Of a DNA stretch of 64,000 nt, positions 2,145 through 45,047 are shown piece after piece. Position 1 is the first letter of the stretch, and each line of letters opens with the position of its first letter. The notes below the pieces were generated by a model, which did not search any database, had not been told where the DNA came from, and worked only from the letters and a program-made list of their open reading frames with translations. This DNA comes from Escherichia coli (lineage in GTDB: Bacteria; Pseudomonadota; Gammaproteobacteria; Enterobacterales; Enterobacteriaceae). The translations under genes and the position numbers were made by a program. Location of the stretch: the NCBI RefSeq assembly GCF_050920415.1, contig NZ_CP169309.1. One strand, written 5' to 3'.

Positions 2145-4931
2145 TTAGTGCGCCTGATCCCAGTTTTCGCCACTCCCCACTTCCACCAGCAACGGCACAT
2201 CCAGACGAGTACAATTCTCCATCAGTTGATGGATTTTCTTCGCTACCGCCTCAAGATCATCTTTATGAACTTCAAATACCAGTTCATCGTGTACCTGCAT
2301 AATCATACGCACACGCGGTTGCTCAGCTTGTAACCACGCATCAACGGCAATCATCGCTCGTTTGATAATGTCGGCGGCGGTTCCCTGCATTGGCGCGTTA
2401 ATGGCTGCACGTTCAGCCGCTGCACGACGAGCACCATTGCTGGATTTGATATCCGGCAGATACAGACGGCGTCCGTCCAGCGTTTCAACGTAGCCCTGCT
2501 CTTTCGCCTGAGCACGGGTGCGTTCCATATACTCCAGCACGCCAGGGTAGCGTTCGAAGTAAAGGTCCATGTACTTCTGCGCTTCTTTACGCGGAATGTT
2601 CAATTGTCGCGCCAGACCGAAAGCACTCATGCCATAAATCAGACCAAAGTTGATCGCTTTCGCGCTACGGCGTTGCTCGCTGGTGACGGTTTCCAGTGGC
2701 AAACCAAACACTTCTGCCGCCGTAGCCCGGTGGATATCTTTTCCTTCCGCGAATGCGGTCAGCAAGCCTTTGTCACGCGAGAGATGCGCCATAATGCGCA
2801 GTTCAATCTGCGAGTAGTCCGCCGAGACAATCACATAATCCTCTGGCGCAATAAACGCCTGGCGGATACGACGACCTTCTTCGTTACGCACCGGAATGTT
2901 TTGCAGGTTAGGATCGGTTGACGATAAACGTCCCGTTGCGGTTACTGCCTGGTGATAAGAGGTATGTACACGCCCGGTTTTCGGGTTGATCATCAGCGGC
3001 AGCTTGTCGGTGTAGGTCGATTTCAGCTTCGCCAGACCACGATACTCCAGAATCACTTTTGGCAACGGATAGTCCAGCGCCAGTTCTTCCAGTACCTCTT
3101 CCGACGTTGACGGCGCACCACCCGGCGTTTTCTTCAGCGGTTTAATGCCCTGTTTTTCAAACAGAATGGTTTGTAACTGCTTGGTGGAAGAAAGGTTAAA
3201 TTCTTCACCTGCAATTTCATGCGCTTTCTTTTCCAGCTCAGCCAGACGTAGAGTGAGCTCTTCAGAATGATTATGAAGCACTTTCGGATCGATCTTCACA
3301 CCGTTACGTTCAATGCGTGAAAGCACCGGCACCAAAGGCATTTCGATATTCTCGAAGACGTTCAACGGCCCTTTGTGTTTTTGCAGATCCGGCCACATTT
3401 TCAGATGCAACTGCAAGGTGACATCTGCATCTTCGGCGGCGTAACGTCCGGCCTCTTCGAGGGCAATCTGGTTAAAGGTCAGTTGATTTTTGCCTTTACC
3501 AGCAATCTCTTCAAAAGTGATGGTTTTGTGCTTCAACCAACGTTCCGCGAGGCTGTCCATATCGTGACGTCCGGCAACGCTATTGAGAATGTAGGACTCC
3601 AGCATGGTATCAAACGCAATCCCACGTAGTTCAATGCCGTAGTTCGCCAGAATACCGCGATCGTATTTCAGGTTTTGCCCGACCTTCAGCGCCTTTTCAT
3701 CTTCCAGCAGCGGTTTTAGCAACTCGAGTGCACGCTCGCGAGAGATTTGATCGGGCGCATCAAGATAATCATGAGCAACCGGAATATATGCCGCTACGCC
3801 TGGCTCGATAGCAAAAGAAAGCCCGACCAGGTTAGCAGAGATGTTATCAAGGCTGTCGGTTTCGGTATCAAATGCAAATACCGGCGCTTTTTCCAGCTTC
3901 GCAATCCACTCTTTCAGTGTTTCTTCATCAAGGATGGTGACGTAGTTGTCATAAGAAATCACCGTTGCCGTCACTTCTGGCGCTTCGTCTACAACACTGG
4001 TTTGCTGCGGCTTCGCGGCTGGTTTTTCCCCTTTGGCCTGTAGCCATTTTCCCGCTTCGACATCAGCAGTCCAGCGTTTGAACTCATACTTTTTGAACAG
4101 CCCTAACAACTCTTCTGCCGCCGGTTGCTGCACTTCCAGTTGTTCACAGGTCAGCTCCAGTTCAACGTCGGTTTTAATCGTCGCCAGCTGGTATGAGAGA
4201 TAAGCCACTTCTTTGTTTTGCTCGAGCTTCGCCGCCATTGTTTTCGCGCCACGGAAGCTTAGGCCAGCAATTTTTTCCGGCTCGGCATACAGCGTATCCA
4301 GCCCGCCAAGACCCTGCAGCAGTGCCTGCGCGGTTTTTTCACCAACGCCCGGTACGCCAGGAATGTTATCAGAGGAGTCCCCCATCAGCGCCAGGAAGTC
4401 GATGATCAGTTCTGGCGGTACGCCGTACTTATTCACCACCTCTTCCGGGCCGAGGATGGTATTCGTCATGGTATTGATAAGCGTAATATTTGGCGTCACC
4501 AGCTGCGCCATATCTTTATCGCCTGTGCTTATCAGCACCGGACGTCCGGCTTTTTCGGCTTCCCGCGCCAGAGTACCGATAACGTCGTCCGCTTCTACGC
4601 CAGAAACCGCCAGCAGCGGCAGTCCCATCGCTTTAACCATCGCGTGCAGGGGTTCGATTTGTGCTCGCAGATCGTCCGGCATTGGCGGGCGATGTGATTT
4701 GTAATGTTCAAACAGTTCATCACGAAAGGTTTTTCCCTTGGCGTCAAAGACCACCGCTGCATGCGTCGGTTTATATTGCATGATCAGACTGCGCAGCATG
4801 TTGAGGACACCATACATCGCACCGGTCGGCTCGCCTGCGCTGTTAGTCAGCGGGGGAAACGCGTGATATGCGCGATAAAGATAAGATGAACCATCTACAA
4901 GGATAAGTGGATTTTGGGGGATCTGAACCAT
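2145..4931 (-). CDS. polA: DNA polymerase I
   Basis: 928 aa ORF; 5'-3' exonuclease N-terminus, 3'-5' exonuclease and polymerase domains recognisable; length equals E. coli PolA. Confidence 0.97.
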
Positions 4932-5294
4932 AATGTCCGTGCCTGTTTATCAGATTATGGGTAAAGGATGCCACAGACAGGATGAAAACATGAGTTTTTC
5001 ACCGCTTTTCGTGAAAATCTTTTGTAGATCTTCTGGATCGCTCGCAAATCGTCATGTGGATAACTTTGTGCATAAATTATTTACATCGCTTTTAATTTAT
5101 TATCATGCTTTTTACAGCATGATGTTTGTCTTTGCTTTTCATACAGTTAAATATAAAGCCATCCCTAATAATTGTGATAATGGGATTTTTTCTAATGTGG
5201 ATAGATATGAATTATTTTTCTCCTTAAGGATCATCCGTTATTTGGGGCGTTTTCTGCTAAAATCGGCGCCTTGCGCTTCTTTAGCGCACTGTCT

Positions 5295-6227
5295 ATGGCT
5301 AACCTTTTGAATAAATTCATTATGACGAGAATACTCGCTGCGATAACCCTTTTGCTGAGTATCGTATTGACCATTTTGGTCACTATTTTTTGCTCCGTCC
5401 CGATCATCATTGCCGGGATTGTAAAACTATTGCTACCTGTGCCAGTCATTTGGCGAAAGGTTTCGCGTTTTTGTGATTTTATGATGTATTGCTGGTGTGA
5501 AAGTCTGGCGGTATTACTGCATCTGAACCCACACCTGCAATGGGAAGTTCACGGGCTGGAAGGGTTAAGTAAGAAGAACTGGTATCTGCTTATTTGTAAC
5601 CACCGTAGTTGGGCAGATATTGTCGTACTGTGCGTGCTGTTTCGTAAGCACATTCCGATGAATAAATATTTCCTCAAGCAGCAGCTTGCCTGGGTACCAT
5701 TTCTTGGCCTGGCATGCTGGGCGCTGGATATGCCGTTTATGAAGCGTTATTCCCGCGCTTATTTATTACGTCATCCGGAACGACGTGGTAAAGATGTTGA
5801 AACCACCCGGCGTTCTTGTGAAAAGTTTCGCCTGCACCCCACCACCATTGTCAATTTCGTTGAAGGCTCCCGTTTCACGCAAGAAAAACATCAGCAAACC
5901 CACTCCACTTTTCAAAACTTGTTGCCACCAAAGGCAGCAGGCATTGCGATGGCGCTAAATGTACTGGGTAAACAATTCGATAAACTGCTTAATGTTACGC
6001 TGTGTTATCCGGACAATAACCGTCAGCCGTTCTTCGATATGTTAAGCGGTAAACTGACGCGAATTGTCGTACATGTGGATTTACAGCCTATTGCCGATGA
6101 TTTACATGGCGACTACATCAATGACAAAAGCTTTAAGCGCCATTTTCAGCAATGGCTGAACTCACTGTGGCAGGAAAAAGACCGACTTCTGACGTCGTTG
6201 ATGTCATCACAGCGTCAGAATAAGTAA
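5295..6227 (+). CDS. yihG: Putative acyltransferase YihG (PlsC family), start at internal MANLL Met
   Basis: N-terminal TM segment, NHRSWADI acyltransferase motif; conserved position next to polA. Confidence 0.8.
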
Positions 6228-6267
6228 GTTTTACTCGCCTCTGAATGAGCAGAGGCGAGTGAGTATT

Positions 6268-11305: not shown

Positions 11306-14208
<2,903 letters not shown>

Positions 14209-31033: not shown

Positions 31034-33276
<2,243 letters not shown>

Positions 33277-33289
33277 TTCCGGTCTCCTG

Positions 33290-34045
33290 TCAGAACTTAT
33301 AACCACGATGCAGCGCCACAACCCCTGCCGTCAGGTTGTAATAGTCGACACTTTCGAATCCAGCATCCTGCATCATAGCTTGCAGGGTGTCCTGATCGGG
33401 ATGCATGCGGATAGATTCAGCAAGATAACGGTAGCTGTCAGCGTCGTTCGCGACCAGTGAGCCAATACGCGGCAGCACATGGAAGGAGTAAGCGTCATAG
33501 GCCTTACTTAACGGCTCGATAATCGGCTTCGAGAACTCAAGCACCAGCAGTCGGCCGCCAGGTTTCAGAACGCGATACATTGAACGCAGAGCTTTATCTT
33601 TGTCAGTGACGTTACGCAGACCAAACGAAATGGTGATGCAATCAAAGGTGTTATCCGGGAACGGCAGCGCCTCAGCGTTCGCCTGAACATACTCAACGTT
33701 GCCAATCACACCAATATTACGCAGCTTCTCGCGGCCCATTTTGAGCATGGATTCATTGATATCAGCAAGGACCACTTTGCCAGTTTCACCCACCAGGCGG
33801 GAGAATTTCGCTGTCAGGTCGCCAGTACCGCCTGCCAGATCCAGCACGGTCTGCCCGCGGCGTACGCCACTGCAATCAATCGTGAAGCGTTTCCACAAAC
33901 GATGTATGCCAAAAGACATCAAATCATTCATGACATCGTATTTCGATGCCACGGAATGGAAAACGTGGGCGACCATATCCGCTTTTTGTTCCTTCGCGAC
34001 GGTCTGAAAACCAAAGTGCGTCGTTTCTTGTGACTTATCCACCAT
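33290..34045 (-). CDS. ubiE: Ubiquinone/menaquinone C-methyltransferase UbiE
   Basis: 251 aa SAM-dependent methyltransferase with the LDLAGGTGD motif. Confidence 0.95.
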
Positions 34046-34139: not shown

Positions 34140-35567
34140 CTAGCGCGACTGCTGATTATATTCATCATCGCGTTGATAAGCTTCATCATTCGGCTGCTCC
34201 GGTACCGACCGCAGTCGATACTCTTCATCCTGGCTCACCGCTTGTTCAGCCAAATCCGGATTAATCTCGCGTTTAATTTCTACTCCTAAACCGCGAAACG
34301 CTTCTGCTTGCGCCAGCACATTTCCGCGACCTGAAGAGAGTTTTTTCATTGCCTGGCGATAGTTATCCTGCGCTTTGTCGAGACTTTGACCAATCGCGGA
34401 CATATCATCGACAAACAAGCGCATTTTGTCGTACAACTTGCTGGCACGATCGGCTATTTTCTGAGCGTTGCGGCTTTGATGCTCATAGCGCCAGAGGTTG
34501 GCGATAGTGCGCAGCGCCACCAGCAGCGTGGTCGGGCTAACCAGCATGATATTGTTTTTCAACGCTTCGGTGATCAGCTCCGGCTGGCGGTCAAGCGCCA
34601 GTAAAAATGCGGGCTCAACAGGGATAAACATCAGCACGTAATCCAGGGTTCGTAGCCCCGGCAGCTGTTGATAATCTTTACGTCCCAGCAAGCGGATGTG
34701 GTTACGCACCGACGCGATATGTTCCTGTAGCGAGCTTTCGCGGGTGTAGTCGTCTTCTGCGTTGAAATAGCGTTCATAGGCGACCAGCGTCATTTTGGCG
34801 TCGATCACCACATCTTTTCCGTGCGGCAACCGCACGATGACATCCGGCTGCATCCGCGAGCGGGCGTCATTTTCGATGCTGACCTGGGTTTCATATTCAT
34901 ACCCTTCACGCAGACCGGAAGCCTCCAGCACACGCGTCAATACTACCTCGCCCCAGTTGCCCTGGGTTTTATTGTCGCCTTTCAGCGCACGCGTCAGGTT
35001 GATCGCTTCCTGGGCCATTTGCGCGTTGAGCTGCTGGAGATTGCGTATTTCGTGAGTCAGGGTATGGCGTTCTTGTGCTTCTTTACCGAAACTGTCCTGA
35101 ACCTGACGACGAAAATCGTCCAGTTGTTCACGTAGTGGCGACAACAGGCTGTTCAGACTCTGACGGTTTTGCTCATCAACCCGGCGATTGCTGTGCTCGA
35201 AAATACGGTTGGCGAGGTTTTCAAACTGCTCACTGAGGCGCTGTTCGCTGTTGATCATTTGGCGAATTTTATCGTCAGCATGTTGCTGTACAGCCTCCAT
35301 TCGCGTGGTGACTTCACGCAGATCCGCCTCCAGCGAGGTGTTAATGCTTTGCAGACTGCGCACTTCATTATTGAGTAACTCGCACTCAGCACGCCAATGT
35401 TCGCTTTGGGTAATTTGTTGTTTTGCCGCACTTAACTCCGCGACCATCTCTTCACGTTCAGCGAATTGCTCGGCTTTTTGCTGCGCATGCTGATAACTGG
35501 CAATCAGCCAGCCAATCGCCACGCTCACCAACGCAATAACTGCGTAAACCATGATTGAGATATCCAC
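34140..35567 (-). CDS. rmuC: DNA recombination protein RmuC (GTG start giving 475 aa; track ORF extends further upstream)
   Basis: N-terminal TM helix, long coiled-coil region and RmuC C-domain. Confidence 0.85.
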   Translation of the reverse strand: MDISIMVYAVIALVSVAIGWLIASYQHAQQKAEQFAEREEMVAELSAAKQQITQSEHWRAECELLNNEVRSLQSINTSLEADLREVTTRMEAVQQHADDKIRQMINSEQRLSEQFENLANRIFEHSNRRVDEQNRQSLNSLLSPLREQLDDFRRQVQDSFGKEAQERHTLTHEIRNLQQLNAQMAQEAINLTRALKGDNKTQGNWGEVVLTRVLEASGLREGYEYETQVSIENDARSRMQPDVIVRLPHGKDVVIDAKMTLVAYERYFNAEDDYTRESSLQEHIASVRNHIRLLGRKDYQQLPGLRTLDYVLMFIPVEPAFLLALDRQPELITEALKNNIMLVSPTTLLVALRTIANLWRYEHQSRNAQKIADRASKLYDKMRLFVDDMSAIGQSLDKAQDNYRQAMKKLSSGRGNVLAQAEAFRGLGVEIKREINPDLAEQAVSQDEEYRLRSVPEQPNDEAYQRDDEYNQQSR

Positions 35568-35782
35568 AACGCCTCCAGCCTCATTACTTACCCGCACAAA
35601 ATAGAATTGTGCTGTACAAACGTCCAGTTTGAAAGAAGTTTCCTGCGAGGCGCTACGCAAAACGATCCTTAATTTTTATTATTTTATCCCACAATATGAG
35701 ACGTAGTTTATATTGTGGGATATATCACCTTTTCCCCACGTCATTATGTGGAACACTTCAGCAATATCATCAGGAGAAACGT

Positions 35783-36550
35783 ATGGCAGATACCTCTTCA
35801 ACCACCGCTGGCGCACAAACGTTATTACGCGGGCTGGCGGTTCTTAATGCTGTTTATAACGGCTGCCATGACCTGAAAAGTATCGGCGAGTTCACCGGCA
35901 CGACCCGGAGCACAACCCATCGTTTAGTCACCGTTCTGGTGGAACAACGCTACCTGCGCCACGTCCCAACGCAGGGCTACCAACTGGGCGCCAAACTGAT
36001 CGAATTCGGTGCCAGAGCGCTGGAAAGCACCTCGCTGTACGAAGTTGCGCTGCCCGTTTTGCAACGCCTTGCCCGTTACACCCTGGACACCGTGCATCTG
36101 GGGATCGTTGAAGGCGACGAAGTGCTGTATCTGGAGAAGATCAACAGCCAGCGCGGGCTGGAAATGCGCTCACGCCCAGGCCATCGCATGCCACTGGCAA
36201 TCACCGGCATCGGCAAGGCATTGATCCTCAACCGAACAGAAGAAGAGTGGCGCACGCTGTTTAAGACCTGTGGTGATGAAACAAAACTGGGCGCATTTAT
36301 TCAGAACATGCGTCGTTATGCCGCCAGTGGTTTTGCTTTTGATCTGGAAGAGAACGAGCCGACTATCCGTTGCGTTGCAGCGCCGGTTTACAACGCCCGG
36401 GATGAAATTGTGGCGGCTATTTCTGTCGCCAGTACCACTACGTATATGTCACTGGCGCGTCTGGAAGAACTGGCACCTTACGTCAAATCCTGTGCAGAAG
36501 AGATATCCGCTGAACTGGGCTGGGGTAAGCACGTTCACAAAAATAAATAA
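35783..36550 (+). CDS. IclR-family transcriptional regulator (start at MADTSS after an AGGAG RBS)
   Basis: N-terminal HTH (LLRGLAVLNAV...) followed by an IclR-type effector domain; first gene of an accessory cluster. Confidence 0.7.
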   Translation: MADTSSTTAGAQTLLRGLAVLNAVYNGCHDLKSIGEFTGTTRSTTHRLVTVLVEQRYLRHVPTQGYQLGAKLIEFGARALESTSLYEVALPVLQRLARYTLDTVHLGIVEGDEVLYLEKINSQRGLEMRSRPGHRMPLAITGIGKALILNRTEEEWRTLFKTCGDETKLGAFIQNMRRYAASGFAFDLEENEPTIRCVAAPVYNARDEIVAAISVASTTTYMSLARLEELAPYVKSCAEEISAELGWGKHVHKNK

Positions 36551-36573
36551 ACCATGACTAAAGGAAACGGCTA

Positions 36574-37578
36574 ATGTCGGGAAACACCTCATTTATTGCC
36601 CTGGACTGGGGAACGTCATCGCTTCGGGCATGGCGTTTTGGCGACTCACCCAATCCACAAGAAAAACGTGAATTCCCGTGGGGGATCATGAAATTACCCT
36701 CCCAGGCAGCAACACGTGAGGACGCTTTCCACGATACGTTTTTACGTGTCTGCGGCGACTGGCTGGCACAATCCCCATGCCCGATTCTGGCTTGCGGCAT
36801 GATCGGCAGTGCGCAAGGGTGGCAACCCGCAGCTTATTTACCTTGCCCGGTCACTCTCGAGGGTCTGGCAAAGCAGTTGACGCCTGTTATCTACCAGCAG
36901 CAGACAATGCTGCACATCATTCCCGGCGTGATTAAAGAAGGTGAAATGCCCGAAGTGATGCGTGGCGAAGAGACACAAATCTTCGGTGCTATCTCGATGG
37001 AACCGGCCCTGCAAAACGCGCTCCGCCAGGGTATGCCTGTGCTGATTGGCTTACCTGGCACACATGCGAAATGGGCGGTAGTTGAAAACAACACCATTAC
37101 CGATTTTCGAACCTTTATGACAGGCGAGTTATTTGATGTTTTATCCCGCCATTCGATTCTCGGTGCCACCATGCGTTCGGGAGATGAACCGCACTGGGAT
37201 GCCTTCGCCCACGGGCTGACAGCGGCACAAGAGCATCATCAGACCGGATTATTATCGACGCTGTTTTCGACCCGTTCGCGCCTGCTGACCAGTAATCTTA
37301 CGCCGTCCTCACAGGGGGATTACCTTTCAGGATTACTGATAGGCCATGAATTATGCGGTCTGGCATCCAGTTTGCTACGTGATTTACCCGCCACAACACC
37401 GATCGCCTTAATCGGTAGCGCCACTCTGAACAGCCGCTATTCACAAGCATTCAGCCACGTTTTTCCCGACAGACAGCTACACGCCATTCCTAATGCCACT
37501 GAACAGGGGTTATGGCGAATCGCCCACGCTGCCGGGCTACTCTCCACCAACGCCAGGGAATGTACTCATGCCATTTAA
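36574..37578 (+). CDS. 2-dehydro-3-deoxygalactonokinase-like sugar-acid kinase (DgoK family)
   Basis: Motifs IALDWGTSSLRAW, VMRGEETQIFGA, PGTHAKW, DFRTFMTGELF and LSGLLIG parallel E. coli DgoK. Confidence 0.7.
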   Translation: MSGNTSFIALDWGTSSLRAWRFGDSPNPQEKREFPWGIMKLPSQAATREDAFHDTFLRVCGDWLAQSPCPILACGMIGSAQGWQPAAYLPCPVTLEGLAKQLTPVIYQQQTMLHIIPGVIKEGEMPEVMRGEETQIFGAISMEPALQNALRQGMPVLIGLPGTHAKWAVVENNTITDFRTFMTGELFDVLSRHSILGATMRSGDEPHWDAFAHGLTAAQEHHQTGLLSTLFSTRSRLLTSNLTPSSQGDYLSGLLIGHELCGLASSLLRDLPATTPIALIGSATLNSRYSQAFSHVFPDRQLHAIPNATEQGLWRIAHAAGLLSTNARECTHAI

Positions 37579-38197
37579 TACGCTTTTGCAAAAAACCGGG
37601 TTAGTCGCCATTTTACGCGGCGTGAAACCGGATGAGATTGTCGCCATCGGTGAAAAGCTGTATGCCTCTGGATTTCGCCTGATTGAGATTCCCATGAACT
37701 CGCCGGAGCCGTTGCAAAGTATCAGTTTACTGCGCGACGCCCTGCCTAAGGACTGCCTGGTCGGAGCCGGAACTGTGCTTTCGGTGGAGCACGTCGTCGC
37801 GGTTAAAGAGGCTGGAGGCCAGATTATCGTGATGCCGCATTGCGATACTGCGGTGATCCGTCGTGCCCGTGCGCTGGGTATGTATTGTGCGCCTGGCGTC
37901 GCTACGCCCACCGAAGCTTTTGCTGCCATTGAGCATGGTGCTAATGCCATCAAGCTGTTCCCGGCTGAACAAATTACGCCTGAAGTCACCAAAGCCTGGC
38001 GTGCGGTTATTCCACAATCCGTTCCGATGTTACCGGTTGGCGGTATCACTCCGGAAACCATGGCGCGTTATCTGAGCCACGGTGCAAACGGCTTTGGTCT
38101 CGGTTCTGCGCTTTATCGCCCTGGCATGACGCCAGAGCAGGTCTATAAAAATGCAGTACTGTTTATGAACGCATGGACCAATTTAAACAACAACTAA
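37568..38197 (+). CDS. 2-dehydro-3-deoxy-6-phosphogalactonate aldolase-like (DgoA/Eda family; start at MPFNTLLQ)
   Basis: AILRGVKPDEIV..IEIPMNSPEP motifs of KDPGal/KDPG aldolases; ATG overlaps the kinase stop. Confidence 0.7.
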   Translation: MPFNTLLQKTGLVAILRGVKPDEIVAIGEKLYASGFRLIEIPMNSPEPLQSISLLRDALPKDCLVGAGTVLSVEHVVAVKEAGGQIIVMPHCDTAVIRRARALGMYCAPGVATPTEAFAAIEHGANAIKLFPAEQITPEVTKAWRAVIPQSVPMLPVGGITPETMARYLSHGANGFGLGSALYRPGMTPEQVYKNAVLFMNAWTNLNNN

Positions 38198-38221
38198 CTG
38201 ATAAATAAGGATATAAAAACA

Positions 38222-39196
38222 ATGATAAAACATCTTACCTTACCGAAAAAAATGGCTGCAATGGTACTCCTTGCCGGCGCTTCCCTCAGCACTGCGCCTG
38301 TGCAGGCGGCCTCCTACCCAACCAAACAGATCGAGTTAGTCGTACCCTACGCGGCCGGAGGCGGTACGGATCTGGTTGCCCGTGCCTTTGCTGATGCCGC
38401 CAAAAACCATTTGCCCGTCAGCATCGGGGTTATCAATAAACCTGGCGGTGGCGGCGCTATCGGCCTGAGTGAAATCGCCGCTGCCCGCCCTAACGGTTAC
38501 AAAATGGGTTTAGGCACGGTTGAACTGACCACCCTTCCCAGCCTCGGAATGGTGCGTTTTAAAACCAGCGACTTTAAACCCATTGCCCGTCTGAACGCGG
38601 ATCCGGCTGCTATCACCGTCCGTTCTGATGCGCCGTGGAATAGCTATGAAGAATTTATGACTTACGCCAAAGCGAATCCCGGAAAAGTACGCATTGGTAA
38701 CTCAGGCACCGGAGCAATCTGGCATCTGGCGGCAGCTGCACTGGAAGACAAAACGGGCGTGAAGTTTTCTCATGTCCCATATGACGGCGCAGCCCCTGCC
38801 ATTACAGGCCTGTTAGGCGGGCATATTGAAGCGGTTTCCGTAAGCCCAGGTGAAGTTATCAATCATGTGAAAGGCGGCAAGCTGAAGACACTGGTAGTGA
38901 TGGCGGATGAACATATGAAAACCATGCCTGACGTACCGACGTTAAAAGAGAAAGGCGTTGATCTCTCCATCGGCACCTGGCGCGGTCTGATCGTGTCGCA
39001 AAAAACGCCGCAGGATGTGGTTGATGTTCTGGCTAAGGCCGCAAAAGAGACGGCTGAAGAGCCTGCATTCCAGGATGCTCTGCAAAAGTTGAATCTCAAC
39101 TATGCATGGCTTGATGGTGCCAGCTTCCAGACCCAAATCAACGAACAGGAAAAGTACTTTGACGAGTTACTAACTCGGCTGGGCTTGAAAAAATAA
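38222..39196 (+). CDS. tctC: Tripartite tricarboxylate transporter substrate-binding protein (TctC/Bug family)
   Basis: 324 aa with signal peptide; Bug-family periplasmic binding protein features. Confidence 0.7.
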   Translation: MIKHLTLPKKMAAMVLLAGASLSTAPVQAASYPTKQIELVVPYAAGGGTDLVARAFADAAKNHLPVSIGVINKPGGGGAIGLSEIAAARPNGYKMGLGTVELTTLPSLGMVRFKTSDFKPIARLNADPAAITVRSDAPWNSYEEFMTYAKANPGKVRIGNSGTGAIWHLAAAALEDKTGVKFSHVPYDGAAPAITGLLGGHIEAVSVSPGEVINHVKGGKLKTLVVMADEHMKTMPDVPTLKEKGVDLSIGTWRGLIVSQKTPQDVVDVLAKAAKETAEEPAFQDALQKLNLNYAWLDGASFQTQINEQEKYFDELLTRLGLKK

Positions 39197-39212
39197 TCCC
39201 GAGGTACGGTCG

Positions 39213-39719
39213 ATGAACACAAAACAGTCTGTTGCTCAACTCGCCGTACCGCACCGCAAGCGCCTTTCATCCACTGTGGTGGTGGCGCTGTTACTTTGTG
39301 TGGTTGCTGGCGCGGTGATAATTAATGCCGCTGATTTTCCAGCAACTGCCATTGAAACGGATCCCGGTGCAAGTGCCTTCCCTACTTTCTATGCCTGCGC
39401 TCTGATTGTGCTCGCTGTCTTACTGGTGATACGCGATCTTTTGCTGGCAAAACCAGTCCCTTGCGCCAACGCACAGGAAAAACCGGCATTAAGGAAAACG
39501 GCAACAGGAATTGCGGCAACCGCGTTTTATATTGTGGCGATGAGCTACTGCGGTTATCTCATTACTACTCCTGTTTTCCTCATCGTCATTATGACGTTGA
39601 TGGGCTACAGGCGATGGGTACTCACACCGGGTATTGCGCTGCTGTTAACGGCAATCCTCTGGTTGCTGTTTGTCGAAGCGTTACAGGTGCCATTGCCTGT
39701 CGGCACATTTTTCGAATAA
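39213..39719 (+). CDS. tctB: Tripartite tricarboxylate transporter small membrane subunit (TctB-like)
   Basis: 168 aa, four predicted TM helices, located between tctC and tctA. Confidence 0.55.
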   Translation: MNTKQSVAQLAVPHRKRLSSTVVVALLLCVVAGAVIINAADFPATAIETDPGASAFPTFYACALIVLAVLLVIRDLLLAKPVPCANAQEKPALRKTATGIAATAFYIVAMSYCGYLITTPVFLIVIMTLMGYRRWVLTPGIALLLTAILWLLFVEALQVPLPVGTFFE

Positions 39720-39731
39720 CAGGGGCCTGCA

Positions 39732-41222
39732 ATGTTTGAAAGTGAACTTTTAACTCAGGGGTTTTCGACATTACTCAGTAATCCTCAGGCGCTGCTGTTT
39801 GCCACGTTTGGAGTGATGCTGGGTATTATGATTGGCGCTCTGCCTGGCCTGACAGCGACCATGGGTGTGGCGATTTTGCTGCCTTTCACCTACGGCATGG
39901 AGCCTGTTTCTGGCTTATTGATGATTTGCGGTGTCTTTTTTGGTGGTGTGTATGGTGGTTCTATCACCGCAATTTTGCTCAAAATTCCCGGTACACCTGC
40001 CGCCGCTGCCACCGCCATTGACGGATATGAGCTGACGAAGCAGGGAAAAGCCGGGCTGGCGTTAAGTGCCGCCACGTTCTCTTCTTTTAGCGGTGGAACG
40101 CTCAGCATTATCGTATTGATGTTTCTCTCTCCGGTACTTGCCAGTTGGGCGTTGAAATTTAGTGCCTCGGAGTCCTTCGCCCTGGCAACCTTCGGGCTAA
40201 GTATTATTGCCAGTATTTCCGGTGAGTCACTGATTAAAGGGCTGATTGCCGGGGTTGGCGGATTGCTGATCGCAACGATAGGCCTTGATCCAATGGGCGG
40301 TTTTCCACGCTTTACAGGTGGATTTGTGGAGCTGATGAATGTGCCATTTATCCCGGTGATGATTGGTCTGTTTGCTGCTTCAGAAGCATTCCGCTCTATG
40401 GAGCAAAACCAGCAAATTCGTCAGGGGGCGAAGGTGGCTATCGGCAGTCTGTTACTGCCCTGGCAAACACTACGCCGCATCGCATTAACCATTTTGCGCT
40501 CATCAGGATTAGGGGTTTTTATCGGCATGATCCCCGGTGCGGGGGCAGATATTGCAGCTTTTGTTGCCTATAACGAAACTCGTCGTTTCAGTAAGACGCC
40601 TGAAAACTTTGGTAAGGGTGAGATTAAGGCGGTGGCCTCCTGTGAGGCAGGCGCGAATGGCTGCACCGGTGGCGCATTGTTACCTATGCTGACGTTGGGG
40701 ATCCCAGGCGATGCGGTAACTGCCATCATGCTGGGCGCGTTAACGTTACAAGGGATGCAGCCAGGCCCACTGATGTTTACCGACCACGGCGATATGGTTT
40801 ATACGCTGTTTGTCGGCATGATCTTTTGTTACTTCATGCTGCTAGTTCTTGGACTGCTCTCTTTGAAAGTCATCGGTAACGTGGTGAAGATCCCCGGCAA
40901 TATTCTCACGCCGATGATCCTCGCGCTTTGTGTTGTTGGGACTTATGCGCTGAACAACAGCCTGTTTGATGTTGGCATTATGCTGATTGCAGGCGTGGTG
41001 GGCTATTTCATGCAAAAAGGGGGGTATCCGGCGTCACCCGTAGTGCTGGCATTGATTATGGGGCCAATGGCGGAAAGTAATTTTCGCCGTGCGCTGTCGC
41101 TTTCAGGGGGGTCACTCGACTTCCTGTATACCCGACCGATAACCCTGGCATTGCTGACTCTGGCAGCCTTTACGCTACTGACGCCAATAATACGCAAAAT
41201 TATGCGCTTACGGCGTCAGTAA
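39732..41222 (+). CDS. tctA: Tripartite tricarboxylate transporter large permease (TctA family)
   Basis: 496 aa polytopic membrane protein with glycine-rich TctA-like repeats. Confidence 0.75.
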   Translation: MFESELLTQGFSTLLSNPQALLFATFGVMLGIMIGALPGLTATMGVAILLPFTYGMEPVSGLLMICGVFFGGVYGGSITAILLKIPGTPAAAATAIDGYELTKQGKAGLALSAATFSSFSGGTLSIIVLMFLSPVLASWALKFSASESFALATFGLSIIASISGESLIKGLIAGVGGLLIATIGLDPMGGFPRFTGGFVELMNVPFIPVMIGLFAASEAFRSMEQNQQIRQGAKVAIGSLLLPWQTLRRIALTILRSSGLGVFIGMIPGAGADIAAFVAYNETRRFSKTPENFGKGEIKAVASCEAGANGCTGGALLPMLTLGIPGDAVTAIMLGALTLQGMQPGPLMFTDHGDMVYTLFVGMIFCYFMLLVLGLLSLKVIGNVVKIPGNILTPMILALCVVGTYALNNSLFDVGIMLIAGVVGYFMQKGGYPASPVVLALIMGPMAESNFRRALSLSGGSLDFLYTRPITLALLTLAAFTLLTPIIRKIMRLRRQ

Positions 41223-41276
41223 TTGATATCGCTCCCCGACGTTGGGGAGTATGAGACTGATGACAAACGCTAAATT

Positions 41277-41376
41277 GCCTGATGCGCTGCGCTTATCAGG
41301 CCTACCACAGAAATGCAATATATTGAATTTGCATGCTTTTGTAGGCCGGATAAGGCGATCACGCCGCATCCGGCAT
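41277..41376. repeat. RIP-type BIME: two inverted REP units flanking an AT-rich putative IHF-site spacer
   Basis: gcctgatgcgctgcgcttatcaggcctac ... tgcaatatattgaatttgcatg ... taggccggataaggcgatcacgccgcatccggca. Confidence 0.65.
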
Positions 41377-41407
41377 GAACAAAGCACACGTTAACAACAA
41401 TCGGAAT

Positions 41408-41440
41408 GCTCCCCGACGTTGGGGAGCGTTTTTTTATTTC
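41408..41440 (+). terminator. Hairpin plus T-run overlapping the udp 3' end; second copy of a duplicated 19 bp palindrome
   Basis: gctccccgacgttggggag followed by cgtttttttatttc; the identical hairpin also occurs at 41231-41249 just after tctA. Confidence 0.5.
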
Positions 41441-42198
41441 AGCAGACGACGCGCCGCTTCCACCACGATTTTCACCGCATGGCTTTCGGTTTGTTTCATC
41501 GTCTCAGCATTCGGGATCTCTTGCTGGGTACGATTGACGATAACGCCCGCCACCATACCCGCACGCAGGCCCTGGCTTGCACACATGGTCAGCAGGGTTG
41601 CAGATTCCATTTCATAGTTCATTACGCCCATCGCCTGCCACTCTTCCATAGAACCTTTAAAGTGACGGACTACACGACCAGAGTAAGTATCGTAACGTTC
41701 CTGACCTGGGTAGAAGGTATCAGAAGAAGCCGTCACACCAACGTGAGTGGTGGCACCAATTGACTTCGCCGCTTCAACCAGCGCGGTCGTACATTCGAAA
41801 TCTGCGACAGCCGGGAACTCCAGCGGAGCGAAGTGCAGGCTCGCGCCATCCAGACGAACAGACGCCGTGGTCACCAGCACATCACCCACATTAATATGCG
41901 GCTGGATAGCGCCCGTTGTACCGATACGCAGGAAGGTGCGAATGCCCAGCTGTGCCAGCTCTTCAACCGCAATAGAGGTAGACGGGCCGCCGATACCGGT
42001 AGAGCAGACGATAACAGGTTTACCATCCAGCTCTGCACGCCAGGTGGTGAATTCGCGGTGAGATGCCAGCTTAACCGGCTTATCCATCAGCGCGGCGATC
42101 TTTTCCACACGATCCGGGTCGCCAGGGACGATGGCAAGCGTAGCCCCTTGTAAATCGTTTTTAGTGAGGCCGAGATGAAAAACATCATACTTGGACAT
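41434..42198 (-). CDS. udp: Uridine phosphorylase (start at [10 protein letters not shown])
   Basis: About 254 aa PNP/UDP phosphorylase closely matching E. coli Udp. Confidence 0.95.
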
Positions 42199-43663: not shown

Positions 43664-44062
43664 ATGAGTGATATTATTTACCTGACCATAACCGGAGAAC
43701 AACACGGATGTATTTCCTCTCGTTGTGGAACGAGCACATCAATAGGTAATCGCTGGCAGATTGGTCATGAAGATGAAATCTTCGCGTTCTCGCTCTCTAA
43801 TAGTATTACGAATACAGGAAAAGGGTCACATTTGCATGGCCTTAGTTTCTGTAAGTTGATTGACAAAAGCTCCCCGTTACTTATTAACGCTATTAACAAT
43901 AACGAGCAGTTGTTCATGGAGTTTGACTTCTATCGGATCAATAGATTTGGTCGATGGGAGAAATATTACAACATTCAACTCCGCGGCGCGCTCTTATCAG
44001 CAATCAATCACCTGTTTACGGAGAACAATCTGGATACAGAAACCATCACTGTCAGTTATTAA
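43664..44062 (+). CDS. Hcp-like type VI secretion tube protein domain (132 aa, shorter than typical Hcp)
   Basis: IYLTITGEQHGCISSRCGTSTSIGNRWQIGHEDEIFAF, IDKSSPLLINAI, FYRINRFG and ETITVSY follow the Hcp1-family pattern; RBS before the ATG; AT-rich context. Confidence 0.6.
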   Translation: MSDIIYLTITGEQHGCISSRCGTSTSIGNRWQIGHEDEIFAFSLSNSITNTGKGSHLHGLSFCKLIDKSSPLLINAINNNEQLFMEFDFYRINRFGRWEKYYNIQLRGALLSAINHLFTENNLDTETITVSY

Positions 44063-44107
44063 TATATACTCTCCAGGCATCTGATTGCTAATACTGAATT
44101 TAGTTAT

Positions 44108-44812
44108 TTGGCATTTCCCGATAACTACAATCGTCTGTTTATACCACGGCCAAAAACTAAAGATGATAATGGCCTCAAAACACTCAATAGTAAAGCTGTT
44201 GGCAGACTGCTTGCTGCTGGCGGCATATACAATGGGAATATCGAAGGATTCAGGGAAACAGCAAACAAGTTGGGGGGAGATGCACCTGCTGGTTACGATC
44301 AAGTTATGGATAACAAAGGGTTACTCATCGCTGGTGCTTCAATAGTTGCTGGAGCAGTTCTGGGGAGAATGAGACTCCCTGATTTGGAATCACTTGAGCA
44401 TTTCGGAGCCAGAGGAGCAGTATCAGGAAGACCATTTAATCCCGACCTTGCCGGTGGTCCAATAGAAAATCTGACGACAGATGGCGTAACAATCAACAGG
44501 GAAGGTATCGCTATTGTTGAAAAACACATAGCCAGATTTGGTCATGACCCTGTAAATGAAGTGATGATCAATAGACTGAAAGACATTGAGAAAGGAAAAA
44601 TCCCCCCAGAACAAGTAGATCTTAACTTCTATACTCATGAATGTCGGGAATATCAGCGTTACTGTAATCTTGGTTGGGAAACAGGACAACCTGATGGTGA
44701 CGCAGGCTATGCACTCTGGAATCATACGCATACTGCTACTCTAGAAGATTATAAACTTAAGGGAGAACTTAATGACTTATACCACCAGGATGCACTTGAC
44801 TATGATAACTGA
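44108..44812 (+). CDS. Putative toxin/effector domain protein of unknown class
   Basis: 234 codon ORF in the same frame as the Hcp-like ORF, open from the TAA at 44060-44062; no ATG or clear RBS near its 5' end; glycine-zipper-like GLLIAGASIVAGAVLG segment. Confidence 0.4.
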   Translation: MAFPDNYNRLFIPRPKTKDDNGLKTLNSKAVGRLLAAGGIYNGNIEGFRETANKLGGDAPAGYDQVMDNKGLLIAGASIVAGAVLGRMRLPDLESLEHFGARGAVSGRPFNPDLAGGPIENLTTDGVTINREGIAIVEKHIARFGHDPVNEVMINRLKDIEKGKIPPEQVDLNFYTHECREYQRYCNLGWETGQPDGDAGYALWNHTHTATLEDYKLKGELNDLYHQDALDYDN

Positions 44813-45047
44813 AACTGAAATTAACGTACTGAAAGTTATGGCTGAGAAAGATATAAACTGGAACTGGATGAATCTCGATCGCACACTATCTATAAGGCAA
44901 ATTCCAGGATTCGGTAATGTTGTTAACATTGTTAACAAATTAGCTAACGAGGGTTTGGTTATTATTGAGGATAGCGGACATAAGTCTATGCCTCACTACC
45001 ACGTTACTGAAAAGGGATACAATCTCGTGAAAAGTGAGAATAAATAA
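44802..45047 (+). CDS. Small winged-helix-like protein, candidate immunity protein or regulator
   Basis: ATG at 44802 overlaps the upstream stop (ATGATAACTGA); the ~81 aa product has an HTH-like LSIRQIPGFGNVVNIVNKLANEGLV segment. Confidence 0.4.
   Translation: MITETEINVLKVMAEKDINWNWMNLDRTLSIRQIPGFGNVVNIVNKLANEGLVIIEDSGHKSMPHYHVTEKGYNLVKSENK

What the first reader, a model, noticed from the sequence alone, without database searches (positions are those of the whole stretch)
35696..41230. Accessory sugar-acid catabolic island between rmuC and udp: IclR regulator, DgoK-like kinase, DgoA-like aldolase, TctCBA transporter
rmuC and udp are neighbours in K-12 as I recall; here six same-strand genes are inserted. 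The kinase and aldolase are overlapping and clearly DgoK/DgoA-like, but there is no dehydratase (DgoD) and no MFS DgoT. Instead there is a tripartite tricarboxylate-type uptake system and an IclR rather than GntR regulator. This suggests uptake and phosphorylative cleavage of a pre-formed 2-keto-3-deoxy sugar acid; substrate identity is an inference.
Basis: partly seen in the sequence, partly recalled or inferred. Interest (0 to 1): 0.5.

Follow-up and report, generated by a model that had tools for sequence, protein, structure and literature searches.

The report
Keto-deoxy sugar-acid uptake and cleavage operon
About a quarter of E. coli strains (including BL21 and ST131, not K-12) carry this six-gene operon, which most likely imports an already dehydrated six-carbon sugar acid, phosphorylates it and splits it into pyruvate and a triose phosphate; the genes are well annotated but the substrate has never been identified.

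Summary
Between rmuC and udp, which are 140 bp apart in K-12, the window has one same-strand operon: an IclR regulator, a DGOK-family kinase, a DgoA-type aldolase and TctC/TctB/TctA. It occurs at this site in 1452 of 5426 complete E. coli genomes, including ST131 and BL21(DE3). It has no integrase, tRNA or flanking repeats. All six genes are under purifying selection, with divergence similar to the flanks.

The same module recurs in Phytobacter (also next to udp), Enterobacter, Brenneria, Rhodoferax, Azospirillum and others. Of 31 loci with an orthologous binding protein and enough flank, 26 have a kinase plus an aldolase. None has a DgoD-type or IlvD/Edd-type dehydratase.

The aldolase carries both KDPGal-type stereo-determinants, so 2-keto-3-deoxy-D-galactonate is the best guess. 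Some relatives add a DEH-reductase-like SDR or KduI, which that guess does not explain. The closest characterised binding protein binds unsaturated alginate oligosaccharides. I found no experimental work on the E. coli locus.

Verdict: a real, ordinary-looking catabolic operon and a variant of known pathways, with an open and easily testable substrate. Modest interest.

The parts
35663..35782 (+). Island-specific upstream non-coding region. The left junction with K-12-type sequence lies at about 35662/35663. It presumably holds the operon promoter.
   Evidence: The K-12-type empty site and the window share sequence up to '...ggcgctacgcaaa' and then diverge. The region is 98% conserved among the window, ST131, BL21 and a metagenomic Escherichia contig. 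The consensus scan found no sigma-70 match on the + strand.
35685..35722 (.). Candidate operator for the IclR regulator: perfect 13-bp inverted repeat TATCCCACAATAT-N12-ATATTGTGGGATA, about 60 bp upstream of the regulator's ATG.
   Evidence: It is conserved in BL21 and L096, with one arm mismatch in ST131. CCCAC(A/T)AT-like half-sites recur upstream of the regulator in Spirabiliibacterium, Brenneria, Azospirillum, Skermanella and an Acetobacteraceae bacterium. Binding is inferred, not shown.
35783..36550 (+). IclR-family transcriptional regulator (255 aa), first gene of the operon.
   Evidence: NCBIfam hits to BhcR, KdgR, PcaR and IclR, all below the equivalog cut-offs. RefSeq annotation and start. 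Orthologues carry Pfam HTH_IclR + IclR_C. dN/dS 0.13 against ST131.
36574..37578 (+). DGOK-family (2-keto-3-deoxy-galactonokinase-like) sugar-acid kinase, 334 aa.
   Evidence: PF05035 1.6e-89 over the whole model. PDB 3r1x (Klebsiella 2-oxo-3-deoxygalactonate kinase) 7.9e-37. Only 34% identical to K-12 DgoK. The DWGTS, MRGEETQ and PGTH(A/C)KW motifs are conserved in those alignments. dN/dS 0.24.
37568..38197 (+). Class I KDPGal-type aldolase (DgoA-like), 209 aa; overlaps the kinase gene by 11 nt.
   Evidence: NF006600 319 bits against a cut-off of 207. PDB 2v81 (E. coli KDPGal aldolase) 5.5e-49. 46% identical to K-12 DgoA. Arg14, Glu37, Thr66 and Schiff-base Lys126 are conserved. Both stereo-determining sites are KDPGal-type (beta1 'A-I', Val154) (determinants from PMC4915726).
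38222..39196 (+). TctC/Bug-family periplasmic solute-binding protein with an N-terminal signal peptide (…APVQA|AS).
   Evidence: PF03401 1e-53. PDB 4x9t (Polaromonas TctC, apo, ligand unknown) 1.6e-99. PDB 25hk (Vibrio sp. C42 TTT-C, binds unsaturated alginate oligosaccharides) 7.9e-64. dN/dS 0.09.
39213..39719 (+). TctB small membrane subunit.
   Evidence: PF07331 1.4e-20.
39732..41222 (+). TctA large permease subunit.
   Evidence: PF01970 2e-151. dN/dS 0.009 against ST131.
41230..41432 (.). Operon end. A GCTCCCCGACGTTGGGGAG hairpin occurs twice (about 41231-41249 and 41408-41427, the second followed by a T-run). The two copies flank a REP/BIME-type element of about 158 bp. ST131 has a single hairpin terminator shared with the convergent udp.
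   Evidence: Sequence, ST131 comparison, terminator scan hit at 41403-41432. A short stretch of this region (about 41289-41376) matches on its own in another record and query pieces match several places per genome (median 5), as expected for REP sequence. The right junction lies at the udp stop codon: island-bearing strains have a 254-aa Udp ending in an extra Lys, K-12-type strains 253 aa.

Best explanation
This is a self-contained, autoregulated six-gene operon for scavenging a pre-formed 2-keto-3-deoxy-hexonate, with 2-keto-3-deoxy-D-galactonate (KDGal) the most likely substrate. The proposed mechanism has four steps. (1) The periplasmic TctC protein captures the acid with high affinity and hands it to the TctB/TctA secondary transporter. 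(2) The DGOK-family kinase phosphorylates it at C6. (3) The DgoA-type class I aldolase cleaves the 6-phosphate through a Lys126 Schiff base into pyruvate and glyceraldehyde 3-phosphate. (4) The IclR-family protein, encoded first in the operon, represses transcription at the palindrome upstream of its own gene until the keto-deoxy acid or its phosphate binds. What is shown: gene content, family membership, catalytic and stereo-determining residues, conservation of the module, purifying selection and distribution. What is inferred: the substrate, the direction of regulation, and the operator.
For: The genes are packed tightly on one strand with gaps of 23, -11, 24, 16 and 12 nt. One upstream palindrome is conserved among E. 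coli alleles and partly across classes. One terminator follows tctA. The module IclR-DGOK-aldolase-TctCBA is conserved as a unit in Phytobacter, Enterobacter, Brenneria, Rhodoferax, Azospirillum, Skermanella, Photobacterium, Spirabiliibacterium and others. Among 31 orthologous binding-protein loci with enough flank, 26 have kinase plus aldolase, 29 have an IclR gene, and none has a DgoD-like or IlvD/Edd-like dehydratase. Unbiased clustering of neighbours found no other recurrent dehydratase family. In Bacilli the kinase is replaced by a PfkB KDG/KDGal-kinase-like enzyme, but the 'kinase + aldolase only' logic is kept. The aldolase has both KDPGal-type stereo-determinants, as do all 27 DGOK-linked aldolases; the 14 other aldolases in the set, including all those linked to a PfkB kinase, have the KDPG type (PMC4915726). 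The closest characterised binding protein recognises 4-deoxy-unsaturated uronate ends, whose rings resemble 2-keto-3-deoxy acids; 7 of its 11 ligand-contact residues are conserved here. dN/dS is 0.009-0.34 for all six genes between alleles about 4% apart.
Against: I found no experiment on this locus. The ligand of the nearest structural homologue (4X9T) is unknown. A published genomic reconstruction assigned a similar dgoK + IclR + TTT cluster to D-galactonate uptake, not KDGal (PMC5507952). One relative (Marinicella) has dgoD next to the module. Nine proteobacterial relatives add an SDR that matches Sphingomonas DEH reductase at 6.5e-106. Six add an SMP-30-type lactonase-like gene. The clostridial variant adds a true KduI. 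None of these is expected to produce D-KDGal. A natural extracellular source of KDGal is not established.
Confidence: 0.55

Rival explanations
1. High-affinity D-galactonate uptake. The TTT system imports D-galactonate. The chromosomal DgoD, induced through DgoR, dehydrates it. The island's kinase and aldolase merely add capacity.
For: Leyn et al. 2017 predicted exactly this for a dgoK + IclR + TTT cluster in Salinivirga. Marinicella has dgoD and dgoA directly beside the module. E. coli K-12 carries dgoRKADT elsewhere in its chromosome. Some relatives carry an SDR plus a lactonase-like gene, which could be read as galactose dehydrogenase and galactonolactonase.
Against: None of 31 well-flanked orthologous loci carries any DgoD-type or IlvD/Edd-type dehydratase. 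That is unusual for a pathway whose committed step is dehydration. In E. coli the island's kinase and aldolase would be redundant with DgoK and DgoA, yet both are under purifying selection. The SDR is a close homologue of DEH reductases, not of sugar 1-dehydrogenases.
Confidence: 0.15
2. A second KDG route linked to unsaturated uronates. The system imports 2-keto-3-deoxy-D-gluconate, or its precursors DEH, DKI or DKII released from alginate, pectin or glycosaminoglycans. The DGOK-like and DgoA-like enzymes actually work on the gluco isomer.
For: The closest characterised binding protein binds unsaturated alginate oligosaccharides and sits with DehR, KdgK and Eda. Nine relatives carry a DEH-reductase-like SDR. 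The clostridial variant carries KduI plus an SDR. The Bacilli variant uses a PfkB KDG-type kinase and a KDPG-type aldolase with a binding protein 53-66% identical to the window's. The regulator's second-best NCBIfam hit is KdgR.
Against: Both experimentally supported stereo-determinants of the aldolase are KDPGal-type. They co-vary perfectly with the kinase family. The aldolase passes the curated cut-off of the KDPGal-aldolase model, not of any Eda model. From general knowledge (not checked here), E. coli already has KdgT, KdgK and Eda. The E. coli island has no reductase or isomerase.
Confidence: 0.17
3. A different ulosonic-type acid. Candidates are 2-keto-3-deoxy-L-galactonate formed by direct reduction of DKI, or a longer 3-deoxy-2-ulosonic acid such as KDO. 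A diverged DGOK/DgoA-like pair would then have new specificity.
For: By stereochemical reasoning, aldehyde reduction of DKI gives the L-threo (L-KDGal) acid, and an alternative reduction of DKII gives the same. That would explain why DEH-reductase-like SDRs or KduI + SDR sit with 'threo-type' DGOK/DgoA-like enzymes. The kinase is only 34% and the aldolase 46% identical to the canonical enzymes. Enterobacter and Marinicella keep two different DGOK paralogues side by side.
Against: This is pure inference. It needs an enantiomer switch and would yield L-glyceraldehyde 3-phosphate. No recurrent gene for handling that product appears in the neighbourhoods. The E. coli island lacks the reductase.
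Confidence: 0.08
4. A decaying or silent remnant with no current function in E. coli.
For: The island is absent from 73% of complete genomes. One genome (HS-02) has only a degenerate 1.2-kb remnant at the site. No consensus promoter was detected.
Against: All six reading frames are intact in the six annotated island-bearing alleles examined here (MFDS1022581, ST131, BL21(DE3), L096, Phytobacter, Enterobacter), and the island is full-length in 1452 genomes. dN/dS is 0.009-0.34 across alleles with dS 0.05-0.20. The module is conserved across classes. The catalytic residues are conserved.
Confidence: 0.05

Closest known systems
E. coli dgoRKADT operon (D-galactonate catabolism, lower De Ley-Doudoroff pathway)
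   Same: It has a DGOK-family kinase followed by an overlapping KDPGal-type class I aldolase. The catalytic residues and both stereo-determinants match.
   Different: The island has no DgoD dehydratase. It uses a TctCBA transporter instead of the MFS symporter DgoT, and an IclR regulator instead of the GntR-type DgoR. The enzymes are distant paralogues, 34% and 46% identical.
KdgR-KdgT-KdgK-Eda system of enterobacteria (uptake and cleavage of pre-formed 2-keto-3-deoxygluconate). Named from general knowledge; it was not retrieved here.
   Same: The logic is the same: an IclR-family repressor, a dedicated importer for a keto-deoxy acid, a kinase and an aldolase, with no dehydratase.
   Different: Here the kinase is DGOK-family rather than PfkB. 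The aldolase is KDPGal-type, not Eda-type. The importer is a binding-protein-dependent TTT system. The genes form one operon.
TTT system of the Vibrio sp. C42 alginate utilisation locus (TTT-C, PDB 25HK; PMC13390454)
   Same: Its binding protein is the closest experimentally characterised relative (7.9e-64). Ligand residues G24, T25, D26, P104, G183, T225 and R227 are conserved. It is also linked to keto-deoxy acid catabolism.
   Different: That system binds unsaturated alginate oligosaccharides and sits with lyases, KdgF, DehR, PfkB KdgK and Eda under GntR regulators. The window protein differs at F19Y, G20A, S164A and E165P. E. coli has no lyases or reductase in the island.
Polaromonas sp. 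JS666 TctC Bpro_3516 (PDB 4X9T)
   Same: It is the closest solved structure (1.6e-99) and probably belongs to the same orthologous group as the Rhodoferax-type modules.
   Different: The structure is apo and the ligand is unknown. I did not examine its genomic context.
Predicted D-galactonate TTT + IclR 'GalR' + dgoK locus of Salinivirga fredricksonii HL-109 (PMC5507952)
   Same: The combination is the same: an IclR regulator, a TTT transporter and dgoK.
   Different: That assignment is a prediction. It assumes D-galactonate as substrate with the other pathway genes in the genome. It was not tested.

Membership tests
DGOK / 2-dehydro-3-deoxygalactonokinase family (Pfam PF05035) | Full-length match to the family profile | tested here: met
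   1.6e-89, model positions 1-281 of 281. PDB 3r1x and 3t69 at 1e-35 to 1e-37.
DGOK / 2-dehydro-3-deoxygalactonokinase family (Pfam PF05035) | ATP-dependent phosphorylation of 2-keto-3-deoxy-D-galactonate at C6 | not testable with these tools
   Identity to K-12 DgoK is only 34%. No NCBIfam model matched.
KDPGal aldolase (DgoA; NCBIfam NF006600) | Score above the curated cut-off of the family model | tested here: met
   319.2 bits against a cut-off of 207. All Eda/KDPG models score below their cut-offs.
KDPGal aldolase (DgoA; NCBIfam NF006600) | Catalytic residues Arg14, Glu37, Thr66 and Schiff-base Lys126 | tested here: met
   All are conserved in the alignment with E. coli DgoA.
KDPGal aldolase (DgoA; NCBIfam NF006600) | KDPGal-type stereoselectivity determinants (beta1 Ala11-Ile12, Val154) rather than KDPG-type (Pro19-Val20, Thr161) | tested here: met
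   The window has 'LVAILR' and Val154. The determinants are taken from PMC4915726.
Canonical dgo (D-galactonate) operon | D-galactonate dehydratase DgoD encoded in the cluster | tested here: not met
   No such ORF lies in 35663-41436. None was found in 31 orthologous loci.
Canonical dgo (D-galactonate) operon | MFS symporter DgoT and GntR-type repressor DgoR | tested here: not met
   The island has TctCBA and an IclR-family protein instead.
Tripartite tricarboxylate transporter (TTT) | TctC binding protein plus TctB plus TctA encoded together | tested here: met
   PF03401, PF07331 and PF01970 in consecutive genes.
Tripartite tricarboxylate transporter (TTT) | Transport of citrate or other tricarboxylates, as in the Salmonella TctCBA prototype | not testable with these tools
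   The genomic context argues for a sugar acid. The family is known to be broad in substrate range (PMC5812351).
IclR-family regulators; KdgR equivalog | Score above the KdgR (NF011671) cut-off | tested here: not met
   126.7 bits against a cut-off of 275. The protein is an IclR-family member but not an equivalog of any named regulator.
Mobile genomic island | Integrase or transposase, tRNA target, flanking direct repeats, deviant base composition | tested here: not met
   Only the six genes are present. GC is 0.48-0.56, like the flanks. The junctions show no repeats. dS is similar to the flanking genes.
Alginate-oligosaccharide TTT (Vibrio sp. C42 type) | Location in an alginate utilisation locus with lyases, KdgF, DehR, KdgK and Eda | tested here: not met
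   None of these is in the island. Seven of 11 ligand-contact residues are conserved.

The most novel reading that the evidence does not exclude
The DGOK/DgoA-like pair of this widespread module may not be a duplicate galactonate branch. It may define an undescribed route for a keto-deoxy acid derived from unsaturated uronates, for example 2-keto-3-deoxy-L-galactonate made by direct reduction of DKI from pectin or host glycosaminoglycans. The TTT system would then let B2/ExPEC and B-lineage E. coli cross-feed on products released by polysaccharide-lyase-bearing gut bacteria. This reading would also give the orphan 4X9T binding-protein family its ligand.
Probability: 0.1. Interest if true: 0.65.

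Novelty: new variant of a known kind. Interest (0 to 1): 0.35.

Why it matters
The operon separates major E. coli lineages: it is present in ST131, the APEC strain BEN2908 and BL21(DE3), and absent from K-12 and O104:H4. It would therefore be a lineage-specific nutrient-scavenging trait of possible relevance to gut or extra-intestinal fitness. It would also assign a ligand class to a large, uncharacterised branch of TctC binding proteins, including PDB 4X9T. Because BL21(DE3) carries it, the substrate question can be answered with routine genetics and binding assays. The perfect co-variation between kinase family and aldolase stereo-signature across phyla is a useful annotation rule for keto-deoxy acid pathways.

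Tried and rejected
The ten literature searches found no study of this E. coli locus. The only mention was tctA as a differentially expressed strain-specific gene in an EPEC RNA-seq table. The CFT073 'dgoK' hit concerns the canonical operon.

The Rfam scan of 35400-41600 found nothing. The sigma-70 consensus scan found no + strand promoter.

I looked for mobility signatures and found none.

I searched the neighbourhoods of 84 related loci for DgoD-like and IlvD/Edd-like dehydratases. The only hits were Marinicella (a true DgoD), one weak enolase-superfamily hit near a distant homologue, and one IlvD/Edd fragment at a locus end. I did not seed UxaA/UxuA/GarD-type dehydratases. Instead I relied on unbiased clustering, which showed no recurrent extra family beyond an SDR, an SGL lactonase-like gene, a PfkB kinase, KduI, a GhrB-like dehydrogenase and a chemoreceptor.

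I first read the SDR + SGL pair as galactose dehydrogenase plus lactonase. I dropped that reading when the SDR matched DEH reductases at 6.5e-106.

I could not test whether genomes carrying the module have a galactonate dehydratase elsewhere.

Full report
What is there. Between rmuC (34140-35567, minus strand) and udp (41434-42198, minus strand) the window carries six closely packed plus-strand genes. RefSeq annotates the same six genes in an E. coli genome that is identical over 35400-41500 (strain MFDS1022581).

The six genes:
- IclR-family regulator, 35783-36550.
- DGOK-family kinase, 36574-37578.
- DgoA-type aldolase, 37568-38197.
- TctC-type periplasmic binding protein, 38222-39196.
- TctB, 39213-39719.
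- TctA, 39732-41222.

The kinase matches Pfam DGOK at 1.6e-89 over the whole model. The aldolase scores 319 bits on the NCBIfam KDPGal-aldolase model, whose cut-off is 207. The transporter genes match TctC at 1e-53, TctB at 1.4e-20 and TctA at 2e-151. The regulator hits only IclR-family models, best BhcR and KdgR, all below the equivalog cut-offs.

Two coordinates need correction. The regulator most likely starts at 35783, not 35696. The aldolase starts at 37568, which gives an 11-nt overlap with the kinase gene.

Is it accessory? Yes. In MG1655, udp and rmuC are separated by 140 bp. The island interior is found full-length in 1452 of 5426 complete E. coli genomes. In every island-bearing genome whose flanks I examined it lies between rmuC and udp. 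These genomes include ST131, the APEC strain BEN2908 and BL21(DE3). Genomes without the island show rmuC and udp directly adjacent.

The two alleles differ by a replacement. About 44 bp in K-12-type strains, including the udp terminator, correspond to about 5.6 kb in island strains. The right junction falls on the udp stop codon, so island strains have a 254-aa Udp with one extra Lys.

It is not a mobile island in the usual sense. There is no integrase, tRNA, flanking repeat or compositional deviation. The window's allele is about 4% diverged from the ST131 and BL21 alleles. That is about as diverged as the neighbouring core genes. The ubiB-ubiE segment is 96.3-96.6% identical to most E. coli. 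dS is 0.05-0.20 for island genes, 0.14 for udp and 0.37 for rmuC. Phytobacter massiliensis has the same six genes immediately beside udp. I therefore read the locus as an old presence/absence polymorphism rather than a recent insertion.

All six genes are under purifying selection, with dN/dS from 0.009 to 0.34. The operon is therefore maintained for a function.

Regulatory anatomy. A perfect 13-bp inverted repeat, TATCCCACAATAT-N12-ATATTGTGGGATA, lies at 35685-35722, about 60 bp upstream of the regulator's start codon. It is conserved among E. coli alleles. Similar CCCAC(A/T)AT half-sites occur upstream of the orthologous regulator in several other genera. It is the obvious candidate operator, but this is inference.

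A hairpin terminator follows tctA and is shared with the convergent udp in ST131. In the window that hairpin is duplicated around a REP/BIME-type element of about 158 bp. No Rfam family matches the region.

Comparative genomics. The binding protein has thousands of relatives. I examined the neighbourhoods of 84 loci. Binding proteins above roughly 50% identity are almost always linked to the same functions. Of 31 loci with enough flanking DNA, 26 have a kinase plus an aldolase and 29 have an IclR gene. None has a DgoD-type or IlvD/Edd-type dehydratase.

Unbiased clustering of all neighbouring ORFs found no other recurrent dehydratase family. The only exception is Marinicella, where dgoD and dgoA sit beside a module that lacks its own aldolase.

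The module comes in three versions:
- Proteobacteria: IclR-DGOK-aldolase-TctCBA.
- Bacilli: IclR-TctCBA, a PfkB kinase most similar to bifunctional KDG/KDGal kinases, and an aldolase.
- Clostridia: IclR-aldolase-TctCBA, a distant DGOK kinase, an SDR and a true KduI.

A transporter that stays linked to 'kinase + aldolase' even when the kinase family changes, and is almost never linked to a dehydratase, is what one expects for import of an already dehydrated 2-keto-3-deoxy acid.

Which isomer? The aldolase is 46% identical to E. coli DgoA. It keeps Arg14, Glu37, Thr66 and the Schiff-base Lys126. Two sites have been shown by mutagenesis to control the stereochemistry of KDPG versus KDPGal aldolases: the beta1 strand (Ala-Ile versus Pro-Val) and Val154 versus Thr161 (PMC4915726). 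The window enzyme is KDPGal-type at both.

Across all loci this signature co-varies perfectly with the kinase family. All 27 aldolases next to a DGOK kinase are KDPGal-type. The 14 others, including all those next to a PfkB kinase, are KDPG-type. On this basis 2-keto-3-deoxy-D-galactonate is the best single guess for the E. coli operon.

What does not fit. Nine proteobacterial modules also contain an SDR, in some cases inside the operon. These SDRs are 58-100% identical to one another. They match the DEH reductases A1-R and A1-R' of Sphingomonas at 6.5e-106. Six modules contain an SMP-30/gluconolactonase-type gene. The clostridial version has KduI.

The closest experimentally characterised binding protein is TTT-C of Vibrio sp. 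C42 (PDB 25HK). It binds unsaturated alginate oligosaccharides and works with DehR, KdgK and Eda. Seven of its eleven ligand-contact residues are conserved in the window protein.

By stereochemical reasoning, natural unsaturated uronates give KDG or the L-enantiomer of KDGal, not D-KDGal. So one of two things must be true. Either the DGOK/DgoA-like pair has a specificity that its sequence signature does not reveal, or these accessory enzymes do something else. I could not resolve this. The E. coli island has none of these accessory genes.

The nearest solved structure, Polaromonas 4X9T (1.6e-99), is apo with unknown ligand.

Rivals. D-galactonate uptake with DgoD acting in trans was predicted for a similar cluster (PMC5507952). 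It is weakened by the systematic absence of dehydratases and by the redundancy it implies in E. coli. A KDG or unsaturated-uronate route fits the accessory genes and the characterised homologue, but it conflicts with the aldolase signature and model assignment. A new substrate, such as L-KDGal or another ulosonic acid, cannot be excluded. A decaying remnant is unlikely given the selection data.

Novelty and verdict. The genes are routinely annotated, and the architecture is a variant of two textbook systems, dgoRKADT and KdgR/KdgT/KdgK/Eda. The literature I could search contains no functional study of the E. coli locus.

The finding is real and correctly described, and its interpretation is reasonable. 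It is of modest interest: a lineage-specific nutrient operon whose substrate is unknown but easy to determine, since BL21(DE3) carries it.

Noticed in passing
window 41230-41432: The terminator hairpin GCTCCCCGACGTTGGGGAG between tctA and udp is present twice. The two copies flank a REP/BIME-like element of about 158 bp. ST131 has one hairpin and a 34-bp spacer. It looks like a REP-element insertion with duplication of the hairpin target.
   Followed up: partly
window 43664-45047: Between ysgA and metE, which are adjacent in MG1655, there is a low-GC (0.36-0.44) insert. It contains an Hcp/TssD-like ORF with an internal stop, an HNH-nuclease-like ORF (44108-44812) and a small downstream ORF. 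This looks like an orphan T6SS Hcp-toxin/immunity remnant. In strain MFDS1022581 an IS2 copy interrupts it at the position equivalent to window 44221. The window lacks that IS2, so the window comes from a close relative and not from that record.
   Followed up: partly
L005 (E. coli HS-02, NZ_CP172818.1) 5001-6191: At the rmuC-udp site this genome has an unannotated 1.2-kb stretch only 78.8% identical to the 5' part of the island, and udp is annotated as truncated. It is either a decayed remnant of the island or an assembly problem.
   Followed up: no
L006/L027 (Phytobacter massiliensis): The same six-gene module lies between ubiE and udp. No rmuC gene is called there, so the module sits at the udp-side position in another genus.
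   Followed up: no
L008 (Enterobacter hormaechei) 4079-6258 and 12239-13003: Here the module lies at a different locus. It is accompanied by a divergently transcribed second DGOK paralogue plus an iron-type alcohol dehydrogenase, and by a second IclR gene downstream. Two DGOK paralogues side by side suggest different substrate specificities within the family.
   Followed up: no
L010, L012, L016-L018, L020, L025, L029, L030: A DEH-reductase-like SDR (6.5e-106 to PDB 3afm and 4tkl) sits next to or inside DGOK-type modules. Six of the module loci also carry an SMP-30-type lactonase-like gene. Their role beside KDPGal-type aldolases is unexplained.
   Followed up: partly
window 31034-34045 (ubiB-ubiJ-ubiE): This core segment is only 96.3-96.6% identical to most E. 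coli genomes, and just 14 of 5425 genomes are at least 99% identical. Only one of those 14 has the island allele at 99% or more. The window therefore comes from a rare, divergent lineage, or at least this region does.
   Followed up: no
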